Below, piece after piece: positions 33-993 of a stretch of DNA of 28,861 bases. Source of the stretch: a virus (taxonomy: Duplodnaviria; Heunggongvirae; Uroviricota; Caudoviricetes); the IMG/VR virus record IMGVR_UViG_2695420523_000005. One strand, given 5' to 3'. The notes under the pieces were generated by a model that was not told where the DNA came from, ran no database searches, and saw only the letters and a program-made list of their open reading frames with translations. How positions within the stretch are numbered: the stretch's first letter is position 1; each line of letters opens with the position of its first letter. The position numbers and the translations under genes are program-made.

Positions 33-575
33 TCAATATTGGGCCGTTGGTGGAGATATAAGTGGATCACTTTTCATCCGTCGTTGACATTTAGTTACAG
101 GAACAGCCTTCACGGTTTTCACCGGCTTAACAACGCCAGCTCGACGCAGACCTTCCTCAATAACTTCTGCCGCATACCAGGTGTTCAGCGTTTTTAGCGG
201 ACCTCGCCCATTCTCATGGCGAATGATTGCCTCAACCAAAGGTCGAAGAATGTCGTAATCATGCAGATCGATAATCATGTCTGCGGTTACACCAACGGCT
301 TTAGACACCTCATTAATGTAGGCGTCAGTGTTGTTTTCATTCGGCGGTGCCCAACGTTCAATAACTTCACGAATGGTATCGATACTTGAGCCGTCTTTTG
401 CGCGACGCTTGTCGTGGTAGGTAATTAGAGTCACCGCCAGTGCACGAATCCCCCAAACAGGGTCTTTAAACGTGCAAAAGCGCGGTTCGTCTGGATTCGC
501 AACCAGACCTTGCCACGGTGATCCTTTATCAAGATTACCGGGGTTATTATTACGAATACCTCTCGGAGTCTTCAT
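33..575 (-). CDS. Conserved phage protein with N-terminal RNNNPGN motif; candidate endolysin / peptidoglycan hydrolase by context only
   Basis: ORF-track ORF 33..602. I prefer the internal ATG at 575 (MKTPRGIRNNNPGNL...) because AGGAG lies about 7 nt upstream on the minus strand (plus 580..586 region); stop TGA at 33..35. No catalytic motif of a known lysozyme, amidase or peptidase family recognised, so function is inferred from position after a small membrane protein. Confidence 0.55.
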   Translation of the reverse strand: MKTPRGIRNNNPGNLDKGSPWQGLVANPDEPRFCTFKDPVWGIRALAVTLITYHDKRRAKDGSSIDTIREVIERWAPPNENNTDAYINEVSKAVGVTADMIIDLHDYDILRPLVEAIIRHENGRGPLKTLNTWYAAEVIEEGLRRAGVVKPVKTVKAVPVTKCQRRMKSDPLISPPTAQY

Positions 576-588
576 CCTTGATCTCCTG

Positions 589-912
589 TTATTGCAGTCC
601 ATTTTTTACGCCATACGCGGCTAACCCCAAAAGCAGTGCGGTAATAATGAACGACGTTATTTTAGAAACAATGCCGCCAAAGAACCCACTTGAGATGGAA
701 TCTAACCGGTTAAGGAGTTTGTCCAGGTTGGAGTGTTGAATACTATGTTGCGCCGGGGTCATATCACCAAAGTAGGTTTTCAGCTGATCGTTGACCTCCT
801 GGCCAATTTCTTCACGTAGCTCTTTACCTAATTTGCCAACAACCTCCCGAGCAACGATCGCGGCAATACGCTCAACTTGCTCTGTTGTAACGCCCGCCAT
901 CTCGTTCGACAT
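589..912 (-). CDS. Small tail-anchored membrane protein (soluble charged N-terminal part, single C-terminal TM helix); candidate non-canonical holin / lysis-associated protein
   Basis: ORF-track ORF 589..924. ATG at 912 is preceded by GGAGG (plus 916..920 region); hydrophobic stretch ITSFIITALLLGLAAYGV near the C-terminus; sits immediately upstream of the 33..575 gene. Confidence 0.5.
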   Translation of the reverse strand: MSNEMAGVTTEQVERIAAIVAREVVGKLGKELREEIGQEVNDQLKTYFGDMTPAQHSIQHSNLDKLLNRLDSISSGFFGGIVSKITSFIITALLLGLAAYGVKNGLQ

Positions 913-993
913 GTTTTCCTCCATGAAAAGTCAAATCGGGATGGCGGATTTATATCACATTTCACCCTTTTGTTGTAGGTGTGTACTTACCTA

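What the first reader, a model, noticed from the sequence alone, without database searches (positions are those of the whole stretch)
33..924. Possible non-canonical lysis cassette: tail-anchored membrane protein followed by an RNNNPGN-motif protein
The upstream protein (~107 aa) has a long charged helical N-terminal region and a single C-terminal TM helix, the reverse of canonical holins and of i-spanins (N-terminal TM). The downstream protein carries a conserved-looking GIRNNNPGN motif near its N-terminus but no catalytic motif I can assign to a known endolysin family. Both have strong SDs. If this pair performs lysis it would be an unusual holin/endolysin combination; otherwise it is an uncharacterised membrane-associated two-gene system.
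Basis: partly seen in the sequence, partly recalled or inferred. Interest (0 to 1): 0.55.

Follow-up and report, generated by a model that had tools for sequence, protein, structure and literature searches.

The report
IS100-broken SSU5-type phage lysis cassette
These two genes start the known cell-bursting (lysis) module of an SSU5-like phage-plasmid, with a characterised Enc34-type wall-degrading enzyme preceded by an uncharacterised tail-anchored membrane protein, and here an IS100 insertion has cut off the enzyme's membrane anchor, so this copy is probably dead.

Summary
The two minus-strand ORFs are real. They are 100% and 99% identical to the genes annotated "Holin" and "Endolysin" in the SSU5-like Escherichia phage Cyrano.

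**Endolysin.** The RNNNPGN protein is not an unassignable enzyme. It belongs to the characterised Enc34/M4Lys (PHA02564) endolysin family: PDB 7Q47 matches at E = 7e-54, and the catalytic Glu, Trp and Tyr are present.

Window 1-89 is the right end of IS100. It is inserted exactly after codon 162 of a 230-aa gene. The ORF's last 18 codons and its stop come from the IS. The linker and C-terminal transmembrane domain are gone, and Rz/Rz1 are not in the window. Published deletions show this domain is needed for lysis. All 79 complete related loci examined are intact.

**Upstream protein.** The 107-aa protein (589-912) is tail-anchored and belongs to phrog_5093, an uncharacterised family. The family has an invariant G, an HxxxH pair and one C-terminal TM. 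It matches no Pfam holin family. Distant members open lysis cassettes that carry two other endolysin types and a separate 2-3-TM holin-like gene. That layout copies the XhlA/SPP1 gp24.1 two-component holin, with no detectable homology to it.

**Verdict.** This is a known cassette type, disrupted here. The only open point is what the tail-anchored protein does.

The parts
1..89 (+). Right end of IS100 (IS21 family): the last 23 nt of istB (stop codon at 21-23) plus the terminal inverted repeat ending ...TGACA at 89.
   Evidence: It is 100% identical over 89-91 nt to annotated IS100/IS100kyp istB ends in several phage records. In L004 the istB CDS ends at the base corresponding to window 23. Homology to Cyrano begins only at base 90.
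90..575 (-). Native part of the endolysin gene: codons 1-162, the complete Enc34/M4Lys-type (PHA02564) catalytic domain plus the start of the linker.
   Evidence: 161 of 162 residues match the Cyrano endolysin. PDB 7Q47 matches at E = 6.8e-54. phrog_873 'endolysin' matches at 1.9e-71.
33..89 (-). IS-derived tail of the chimeric ORF: 18 foreign codons (CQRRMKSDPLISPPTAQY) and the stop codon. It replaces 68 native residues, which held the linker, an amphipathic helix and the C-terminal TM.
   Evidence: A phrog_36604 match to residues 157-180 lies in this tail.
534..560 (-). GIRNNNPGN motif (residues 6-14), the conserved N-terminal signature of the PHA02564 domain.
   Evidence: The motif aligns identically with Enc34 (7Q47) and with Gp29 of 9VVP, and with phage Chi gp38.
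213..215 (-). Codon of the catalytic glutamate E121 (Enc34 Glu131). W75 and Y86 (Enc34 Trp79 and Tyr95) are also present.
   Evidence: Residues were mapped through the alignment. Their roles are taken from PMC8943055.
589..912 (-). Gene for the 107-aa tail-anchored membrane protein (phrog_5093), annotated 'holin' or 'putative holin' in Cyrano and SSU5.
   Evidence: It is 100% identical to Cyrano CYRAN_22. phrog_5093 matches at 8e-69. No Pfam or NCBIfam family matches.
604..672 (-). Coding region of the single C-terminal transmembrane helix (about residues 81-103), followed by the tail NGLQ.
   Evidence: Hydropathy analysis. The AlphaFold model shows a continuous helix over residues 53-103.
733..771 (-). 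Family signature FGDMTPAQHSIQH (residues 48-60), containing the invariant G49, H56 and H60. It forms the turn between the two long helices and the start of helix 2.
   Evidence: Alignment A3 of 30 diverse members and the structure model.
918..922 (-). Shine-Dalgarno sequence GGAGG, five nt upstream of the ATG at 912.
   Evidence: Read directly from the sequence.

Best explanation
**What it is.** The region holds the first two genes of the four-gene lysis cassette of an SSU5-like phage-plasmid: tail-anchored membrane protein, endolysin, i-spanin, o-spanin. In this copy IS100 has broken the cassette.

**Shown.**
- The downstream gene encodes an Enc34/M4Lys-type (PHA02564) peptidoglycan glycosidase with its catalytic Glu, Trp and Tyr intact.
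- IS100 sits exactly after codon 162. It removes the linker and the C-terminal transmembrane domain, and it separates the gene from Rz/Rz1.
- The upstream gene encodes a conserved two-helix protein with a C-terminal TM. Its homologues sit at the head of lysis cassettes that carry three different endolysin types.

**Inferred.**
- In intact elements the tail-anchored protein is a lysis-timing membrane component that works in the way XhlA/gp24.1 does. Its acidic N-terminal domain most likely stays in the cytoplasm.
- It acts together with a second membrane partner to depolarise or permeabilise the inner membrane.
- In SSU5-like elements that partner is most likely the endolysin's own holin-like C-terminal TM domain. 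In distant relatives it is a separate 2-3-TM protein.
- In this window the truncated enzyme should be soluble, catalytically competent and harmless, so the element is probably lysis-defective.
For: **Identity and synteny**
- Window 90-995 is 98% identical to Cyrano and 83% to SSU5, where the genes are annotated holin and endolysin and are followed by Rz and Rz1.
- Window 20000-28750 is the SSU5-type terminase and head module.

**Endolysin family**
- PDB 7Q47 matches at E = 6.8e-54 and phrog_873 at 1.9e-71.
- Phage Chi gp38 is 55% identical over the full length, including the TM domain.
- The catalytic residues are conserved.
- Muralytic activity is published for Enc34 ORF39deltaC and for M4LysdeltaTMD.

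**IS truncation**
- Shown: - The native C-terminus has a TM at about residues 199-222. The window product has no hydrophobic segment.
- No remnant of the TM domain or of Rz is found elsewhere in the window.
- All 79 IMG/VR relatives with a complete gene encode 226-230 aligned residues of endolysin (full query coverage in 76, residues 4-229 in 3). The gene starts within about 40 nt of the 107-aa gene, and within about 20 nt in most.

**Consequence of losing the TM domain**
- Truncating the M4Lys TM domain abolished lysis. This held even when the neighbouring single-TM protein of the Chi-like phage BSPM4 was co-expressed.
- Only full-length Enc34 ORF39 was toxic.

**Tail-anchored family**
- An exhaustive HMM search found 58 representatives.
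- All 30 aligned members have one C-terminal hydrophobic segment, a 4-14-residue tail and, in all but one, a net-acidic N-terminal domain.
- The model with the deeper alignment has pLDDT 85 and two long helices.

**Contexts of distant members**
- L007: tail-anchored protein, Peptidase_M15_3 endolysin, 2-TM protein.
- L089: tail-anchored protein, M15-like protein, homologous 2-TM protein, i-spanin with an embedded o-spanin, both read from ORF features only.
- L008: tail-anchored protein, 99-aa multi-TM protein, phrog_669 endolysin, Rz-like, Rz1-like.

**Precedent**
- gp24.1 and XhlA have a C-terminal TM and cooperate with a 2-TM holin. Neither protein is lethal alone (PMC6316719).
Against: - No experiment exists for any phrog_5093 member. 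'Holin' in GenBank rests on gene position only.
- No sequence or profile similarity to XhlA or to any Pfam holin family was found. Foldseek gave no match.
- The flanking charges do not fix the membrane orientation.
- In the Chi-like phage BSPM4 the neighbouring single-TM protein, which is unrelated, was neither lethal nor needed for lysis, and it slightly delayed lysis. An inhibitory role is therefore equally conceivable.
- Two distant loci show no adjacent endolysin. L006 has only small TM proteins downstream, and L091 is too short to judge.
- The window ends inside IS100. The 3' part of the endolysin gene and Rz/Rz1 may lie just beyond the IS. If the tail-anchored protein forms large holes, the soluble catalytic domain could still be released.
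Confidence: 0.72

Rival explanations
1. The tail-anchored protein is an antiholin-type negative regulator. It binds the endolysin's C-terminal TM domain, or the separate small holin in distant relatives, and delays a process that would otherwise trigger itself. It does not contribute to membrane damage.
For: - Full-length M4Lys lyses E. coli on its own, so the phage needs restraint more than help.
- Co-expressing the positionally equivalent protein of the Chi-like phage BSPM4 slightly slowed lysis. The authors could not exclude a control function.
- Distant cassettes already contain a canonical-looking multi-TM holin candidate.
- The large conserved cytoplasmic-type domain with an invariant HxxxH looks more like a regulatory or interaction module than a pore former.
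Against: - The BSPM4 protein, which corresponds to Chi gp37, is unrelated in sequence and has the opposite TM position. The analogy therefore rests on gene position only.
- The only characterised proteins with this architecture and position, XhlA and gp24.1, act positively together with their partner.
- There are no data on this family.
Confidence: 0.2
2. The pair in the window is an intact, functional, non-canonical holin and endolysin, with a 180-aa soluble enzyme.
For: - The ORF is open from 575 to 33 with a good ribosome-binding site.
- The catalytic domain is complete.
Against: - The last 18 codons and the stop are IS100 sequence.
- None of the 79 complete related loci has this form.
- Deleting the TM domain abolished lysis in the one homologue where lysis was assayed (M4Lys). 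The Enc34 deletion variant was non-toxic.
Confidence: 0.04
3. The RNNNPGN protein is a virion-associated peptidoglycan hydrolase used at infection rather than an endolysin. The upstream membrane protein is then a moron or exclusion factor, like the neighbouring cor gene.
For: - The same domain occurs in annotated virion proteins. These include internal core proteins of T7-like Kayfunavirus phages, tape-measure and tail proteins, and a match to the 1295-aa Gp29 of PDB 9VVP.
- The pair lies directly after the tail-fibre and cor cluster.
Against: - Here the domain is a free-standing 230-aa protein with its own C-terminal TM. It sits between a small membrane protein and Rz/Rz1.
- Full-length homologues with 55% identity are the experimentally supported endolysins of Chi-like phages.
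- The tail-anchored family is also linked to M15 and phrog_669 endolysins.
Confidence: 0.04

Closest known systems
Enc34 ORF39 / M4Lys / Chi gp38 endolysins (PHA02564 family; PDB 7Q47)
   Same: - The N-terminal all-helical catalytic domain is homologous, with the RNNNPGN signature and the Glu, Trp and Tyr triad.
- Intact SSU5-like orthologues also carry the linker and C-terminal TM domain, and they are followed by spanins. By Kongari et al. the SSU5 o-spanin belongs to the Chi o-spanin family.
   Different: - The window copy lacks everything after residue 162 because of IS100.
- SSU5-like proteins show one clearly hydrophobic helix plus a weakly amphipathic one. Enc34 is described as having a two-helix domain.
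- The upstream partner gene is unrelated to that of Chi or Enc34.
XhlA of PBSX / gp24.1 of SPP1 (Pfam PF10779), the tail-anchored component of a two-component holin
   Same: - Both are small proteins with a charged helical N-terminal part and a single C-terminal TM.
- Both are the first gene of the lysis cassette. SPP1 gp24.1 was checked here: 83 aa, matching PF10779.
- The gene orders in distant phrog_5093 loci copy SPP1 (24.1, 25, 26) in L007 and L089, and copy PBSX (xhlA, xhlB, xlyA) in L008.
   Different: - No detectable homology: no PF10779 match for any of 30 members, and hhalign probability 1%.
- The hosts are Gram-negative.
- This family has an invariant G and HxxxH signature, which is not evident in the gp24.1 sequence.
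- In SSU5-like cassettes there is no separate 2-TM partner gene.
Pinholin plus SAR endolysin systems (phage 21, P1)
   Same: The endolysin is membrane-tethered, and its release or activation is thought to depend on a small membrane protein. The Enc34 authors proposed this analogy.
   Different: - The tether is C-terminal, not an N-terminal SAR helix. No N-terminal hydrophobic segment is present.
- M4Lys lysis was not inhibited by azide, the Sec inhibitor used.
- How the N-terminal enzyme domain crosses the membrane is unknown.
Class III holins (T4 T) and Chi gp37-type single-TM lysis proteins
   Same: Both have a single TM domain plus a soluble domain of 70-80 residues, and both are encoded next to the endolysin.
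   Different: The TM is at the opposite end of the protein. There is no sequence similarity.

Membership tests
Enc34/M4Lys-type endolysin (PHA02564) | Sequence homology of the N-terminal catalytic domain to the solved Enc34 domain | tested here: met
   PDB 7Q47 matches at E = 6.8e-54 over residues 3-151. phrog_873 matches at 1.9e-71.
Enc34/M4Lys-type endolysin (PHA02564) | Catalytic Glu plus conserved Trp and Tyr (Enc34 E131, W79, Y95) | tested here: met
   They map to E121, W75 and Y86 of the window protein. Their roles are taken from PMC8943055.
Enc34/M4Lys-type endolysin (PHA02564) | C-terminal transmembrane domain, required for lysis in vivo | tested here: not met
   It is absent from the window product, which has no 19-residue window with KD above 1.6, because IS100 replaces codons 163-230. 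It is present in Cyrano, SSU5 and the 79 complete IMG/VR relatives.
Enc34/M4Lys-type endolysin (PHA02564) | Peptidoglycan-degrading activity | not testable with these tools
   It is shown only for the homologues Enc34 ORF39deltaC and M4LysdeltaTMD.
Holin (functional class) | Small membrane protein with at least one TM domain, encoded next to the endolysin | tested here: met
   The protein is 107 aa with one TM at residues 81-103. Its stop codon lies 13 nt before the endolysin start. The adjacency is conserved in 80 loci.
Holin (functional class) | Match to a curated holin family (Pfam, NCBIfam) | tested here: not met
   No Pfam or NCBIfam family matches the window protein. No holin family appears among the 25 families that most of the 30 members matched; 66 families matched in all and only these 25 were listed. 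PHROGs labels phrog_5093 'unknown function'.
Holin (functional class) | Highly charged hydrophilic C-terminal tail and a dual-start motif | tested here: not met
   The tail after the hydrophobic core is only a few residues (K103-NGLQ). Met1 and Met5 are not conserved outside close relatives.
Holin (functional class) | Lethal, timed membrane permeabilisation that releases or activates the endolysin | not testable with these tools
   No experiment on any phrog_5093 member turned up in the literature searches made here.
XhlA (PF10779) | Sequence or profile match to PF10779 | tested here: not met
   PF10779 is not among the families reported for the 30 members at E up to 10. hhalign of A3 against SPP1 gp24.1 gave probability 1%. 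The positive control worked: gp24.1 hits PF10779 at 3.9e-14.
XhlA (PF10779) | N-terminal helical soluble part, a single C-terminal TM, and first position in the lysis cassette with a separate multi-TM holin partner | tested here: inconclusive
   The architecture is met. The partner gene is present in L007, L089 and L008. It is absent from SSU5-like cassettes, where only the endolysin carries another TM.
IS100 (IS21 family) | Identity to the istB 3' end and terminal repeat of IS100 | tested here: met
   100% identity over 89-91 nt to several annotated IS100/IS100kyp copies. Only 89 nt of the element lie in the window.
SSU5-like phage-plasmid | Nucleotide identity and synteny with SSU5, Cyrano and pHCM2-type plasmids across the structural and lysis genes | tested here: met
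   Plasmid replication and partition genes lie outside the window and were not tested.
SAR endolysin | N-terminal weakly hydrophobic signal-arrest-release helix | tested here: not met
   No hydrophobic N-terminal segment is present. The N-terminus is MKTPRGIRNNNPGN.

The most novel reading that the evidence does not exclude
phrog_5093 proteins are a Gram-negative, non-homologous counterpart of XhlA: a tail-anchored holin subunit. In SSU5-like elements they would pair with the endolysin's own C-terminal TM domain instead of a separate holin. Together the two would form the lesion, or the depolarisation trigger, that lets a C-terminally anchored enzyme reach the wall. That would give a concrete, testable answer to an open question: how Enc34/M4Lys-type endolysins cross the membrane without Sec or a canonical holin.
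Probability: 0.3. Interest if true: 0.6.

Novelty: new member of a known kind. Interest (0 to 1): 0.3.

Why it matters
**As found, it is mostly ordinary.** It is one more copy of the SSU5-type lysis cassette, which is annotated in GenBank, and its enzyme family is already solved and assayed.

**Two points have some value.**
1. The IS100 insertion removes exactly the domain that published deletions show is needed for lysis. This element has probably lost the ability to lyse its host. The window is bounded by IS100 on one side and IS1 on the other, which fits a phage-plasmid that IS elements are eroding towards a plain plasmid.
2. The upstream protein belongs to a small, conserved and unstudied family. 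It heads lysis cassettes that carry three different endolysin types. In architecture and gene order it mirrors the XhlA/gp24.1 half of the Gram-positive two-component holin. Testing it with the C-terminally anchored endolysin would bear on how this endolysin class is exported and timed, which is unresolved.

Tried and rejected
- **AlphaFold with a shallow alignment.** The 107-aa protein modelled with 12 close sequences gave pLDDT 46, which is unusable. A 30-sequence alignment gave pLDDT 85 but only two long helices.
- **Fold searches.** Foldseek of that model against BFVD and PDB found nothing at E ≤ 0.001 (BFVD 18 matches, best E = 4; PDB none at E ≤ 10).
- **Curated family libraries.** Pfam and NCBIfam gave nothing for either lysis protein. 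A scan of all 30 family members at E up to 10 returned only scattered chance hits among the 25 families listed, with no holin or XhlA family.
- **Locus searches.** The search for related loci with the full alignment A3 failed for lack of a conserved stretch. The genome-contig scan gave one useful locus. The metagenome-contig scan gave one locus that was too short to interpret.
- **Distant member against phage records.** tblastn of P0033 against GenBank phages found only SSU5-like records.
- **Source record.** The record containing the IS100-endolysin junction was sought in PLSDB and in complete E. coli genomes. All best hits start at base 90, so the junction is not in those collections.
- **Displaced gene parts.** The displaced 3' part of the endolysin gene and Rz/Rz1 were sought elsewhere in the window and not found.
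- **Promoters and terminators.** A scan of 1-2300 gave nothing above the shuffle expectation and nothing between cor and the lysis genes.
- **Dual-start motif.** Met1 and Met5 were considered as a holin/antiholin dual start. This was rejected as evidence because Met5 is not conserved outside close relatives.
- **PQ800163.** This 2.9-kb record was checked as a possible cloned cassette. It is an unverified, unannotated fragment.
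Full report
**1. What is in the sequence**

Two adjacent minus-strand ORFs occupy 33-602 and 589-924.

The upstream gene most likely starts at the ATG at 912. That start lies five nt after a GGAGG at 918-922. The ATG at 924 overlaps this ribosome-binding site. The product is 107 aa.

The downstream gene starts at the ATG at 575 (MKTPRGIRNNNPGN...). An AGGAG precedes it. The start lies 13 nt after the upstream stop codon.

Hydropathy analysis confirms one C-terminal hydrophobic segment in the 107-aa protein, at about residues 81-103. 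No hydrophobic segment is found in the 180-aa product.

**2. Where the window comes from**

- Bases 90-995 are 98% identical to Escherichia phage Cyrano and 83% to Salmonella phage SSU5.
- They are 98-99.8% identical to about 110-kb E. coli plasmids of the SSU5/pHCM2 type.
- The far end of the window (20000-28750) is the SSU5-type terminase and head module.
- In Cyrano and SSU5 the local gene order is: tail fibre, small membrane proteins, Cor exclusion lipoprotein (present in SSU5 but not annotated in Cyrano), 'holin', 'endolysin', Rz, Rz1.
- The window's 107-aa protein is 100% identical to Cyrano's 'Holin'.

**3.

- The window's enzyme matches Cyrano's 230-aa endolysin at 161 of 162 residues and then diverges.
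- Window 1-89 is 100% identical to the right end of IS100, an IS21-family element. The istB stop codon is at 21-23 and the element ends ...TGACA at base 89.
- The DNA alignment shows homology to Cyrano beginning at base 90.
- Codon 162 occupies bases 92-90, so IS100 sits exactly between codons 162 and 163.
- The last 18 codons and the stop of the 33..575 ORF are IS sequence read antisense.
- What is lost: the linker, a weakly amphipathic helix, and the only strongly hydrophobic helix of the native protein (about residues 199-222), which is followed by RKHQKGMV.
- No remnant of this region or of Rz is found elsewhere in the window.
- The window itself ends inside IS100. What lies beyond it cannot be seen.
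- The junction was not among the top hits in PLSDB or in complete E. coli genomes.
- Among 80 SSU5-like IMG/VR loci, all 79 with a complete gene have a full-length endolysin next to the 107-aa gene.

**4. What the enzyme is**

- It belongs to the Enc34/M4Lys (PHA02564) endolysin family.
- PDB 7Q47, the Enc34 catalytic domain, matches at E = 6.8e-54. phrog_873 'endolysin' matches at 1.9e-71.
- Endolysins of Chi-like phages are 55% identical over the full length, including the C-terminal membrane domain.

The Enc34 paper (PMC8943055) reports the following:
- The domain is muralytic on outer-membrane-permeabilised Gram-negative cells.
- It uses Glu131, with Trp79 and Tyr95. These correspond to E121, W75 and Y86 here, and all three are present.

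Both that paper and the M4Lys paper (PMC7143992) report how the protein behaves in cells:
- Only the full-length protein is toxic or lytic.
- Truncating the TM domain abolishes lysis. For M4Lys this held even when the neighbouring single-TM protein of the Chi-like phage BSPM4 was co-expressed.
- M4Lys lysis was not inhibited by azide, the Sec inhibitor used.
- How the N-terminal domain reaches the periplasm is unknown.

The same catalytic domain also occurs inside annotated virion proteins. Examples are T7-like internal core proteins, tape-measure and tail proteins, and Gp29 of PDB 9VVP. Here it is a free-standing gene between lysis genes, so the endolysin reading stands.

By inference, the window's truncated product should be soluble, active in vitro and harmless in vivo.

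**5. What the upstream protein is**

- It is phrog_5093, labelled 'unknown function'. Neither Pfam nor NCBIfam has a family for it.
- It is unrelated to the protein at the same position in phage Chi, gp37. That protein has an N-terminal TM. The same endolysin type is therefore combined with different neighbours.
- The word-indexed search found only close relatives. An exhaustive profile search found 58 cluster representatives of 94-143 aa.
- An alignment of 30 diverse members shows invariant G49, H56 and H60 and a nearly invariant D71. The signature is F-G-D-M-T-P-x-Q-H-x-x-Q-H ... D ... S-x-N-F-W-G, followed by the TM.
- All 30 have exactly one hydrophobic segment at the C-terminus. The tail after it is 4-14 residues. 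The N-terminal domain is net-acidic in all but one member. The flanking charges do not fix the orientation.
- With this alignment AlphaFold gives pLDDT 85 and two long helices, 10-48 and 53-103. They are joined at the conserved GDMT turn, and the second helix runs straight into the membrane segment.
- Foldseek finds no significant match in BFVD or PDB.

**6. Genomic context of distant members**

- L007: tail-fibre assembly gene, family member, Peptidase_M15_3 endolysin (Pfam 1.4e-15; phrog_894 at 2.4e-26), then a 72-aa protein that looks like a 2-TM protein.
- L089: family member, an M15-like protein (weak matches: phrog_894 at 0.006; shared S-x-H...A-x-D block with L007), then a 77-aa protein 41% identical to the 72-aa protein of L007. 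It is followed by an N-terminal-TM protein with an embedded lipoprotein ORF. I read these as an i-spanin and an o-spanin from sequence features, without family support.
- L008, from an alphaproteobacterial MAG: family member, a 99-aa protein that looks multi-TM, a phrog_669 endolysin (1.7e-21), an Rz-like protein and an Rz1-like protein.
- L006 has two small hydrophobic ORFs downstream but no endolysin within 4 kb. L091 is too short to interpret.

The family therefore heads lysis cassettes in at least three lineages with three unrelated endolysin types. Outside the SSU5 group a separate holin-like gene is also present.

**7. Closest functional precedent**

A tail-anchored lysis protein is not without precedent.
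- SPP1 gp24.1 is 83 aa, with a charged helical N-terminus and a C-terminal TM. It matches Pfam XhlA at 3.9e-14.
- XhlA of PBSX has the same design.
- Both are described as one half of a two-component holin. Neither gp24.1/XhlA nor the 2-TM partner gp26/XhlB is harmful alone. Together they kill and allow lysis (PMC6316719).
- The gene orders 24.1-25-26 (SPP1) and xhlA-xhlB-xlyA (PBSX) are mirrored by L007/L089 and by L008.

Homology is not detectable. No PF10779 match was reported for any of the 30 members, and hhalign probability is 1% against gp24.1. This is therefore a 'works like' comparison, not family membership.

**8. Most likely mechanism**

Inferred for intact SSU5-like elements:
- The 107-aa protein inserts as a tail-anchored protein, with its acidic helical domain most likely in the cytoplasm.
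- It acts with a second membrane partner to set the time of membrane failure.
- SSU5-like cassettes have no separate small multi-TM gene. The endolysin's own C-terminal domain behaves as a holin-like element in M4Lys. That domain is therefore the most plausible partner.
- The main rival is that the protein restrains the endolysin, as an antiholin would. The slight delay seen when the unrelated BSPM4 neighbour was co-expressed is compatible with this.
- I put about 0.45-0.5 on a positive holin-component role and about 0.2-0.25 on an inhibitory role. The remainder goes to other lysis-linked or unrelated roles.

For this window:
- The endolysin has lost the domain that published deletions show to be needed for lysis.
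- The spanin genes are at best displaced by an IS of about 2 kb.
- The cassette is probably non-functional.

**9. Novelty and score**

- The cassette type is known and annotated, and its enzyme family is solved and assayed.
- The IS100 disruption is a local accident.
- The remaining interest is the uncharacterised tail-anchored family and its possible link to the unresolved export of C-terminally anchored endolysins.
- Interest is 0.3. The classification is a new member of a known kind.

Noticed in passing
window 28750-28861: The right end of the window is an IS1 end (GGTAATGACTCCAACTTATTGATAGTG...). It matches at least 5000 plasmid records under 'IS1-like element IS1B family transposase'. The SSU5-type structural module in this window is therefore bounded by IS100 on the left and IS1 on the right. 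This suggests either a contig that ends in repeats or a rearranged, IS-eroded phage-plasmid.
   Followed up: partly
window 28694-28748: An AT-rich palindrome of about 55 bp (arms CCTGCTTCCGTATATAT / ATATATACAGAAGCAGG with an inner palindrome) lies directly next to the IS1 end. A similar sequence occurs in Cyrano between CYRAN_31 and CYRAN_30, near the partition genes, and matches in both orientations. Its function is unknown. It could be a regulatory or terminal repeat.
   Followed up: partly
window 994-2097 (minus strand): Three genes lie between the tail fibre and the lysis genes. They are a Cor superinfection-exclusion lipoprotein (994-1227; NCBIfam lamb_exclu_cor at 2e-23, phrog_1119) and two small proteins of phrog_425 ('membrane associated protein') and phrog_557 ('outer membrane protein'). 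SSU5 has the same cluster. It is not annotated in Cyrano.
   Followed up: partly
window 2188-6216 (minus strand): A 1342-aa tail-fibre protein has a long Ala/Ser/Thr-rich low-complexity stretch and 2.3 copies of a 120-bp tandem repeat at 3857-4129. The repeated peptide is ...NTTGNQNTTGNAATATKLQTAR.... The Cyrano homologue is annotated as similar to the P1 S tail-fibre protein.
   Followed up: no
L005 1150-1488 (phage Chi gp37, RefSeq NC_025442): The gene upstream of the Chi endolysin encodes a 112-aa protein with one N-terminal TM. RefSeq labels it 'Rz-like spanin', although Chi also has gp39 and gp40 as the spanin pair. Its position is that of the putative holin or 'lysis protein B'. This looks like an annotation error.
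   Followed up: no
L007 4755-4973 and L089 4260-4493: A conserved small protein of 72-77 aa that looks like a 2-TM protein (41% identity between the two) follows the M15-type endolysin in two distant cassettes. It matches no Pfam family, and its only PHROG match is one of unknown function (phrog_6637, E = 9e-4). It is a candidate holin family.
   Followed up: partly
alignment A3, window residues H56 and H60 (window 733-747): The invariant HxxxH pair and the nearly invariant D71 lie on one face of helix 2, just before the membrane segment. This arrangement resembles a small metal- or partner-binding site and is unexplained.
   Followed up: no
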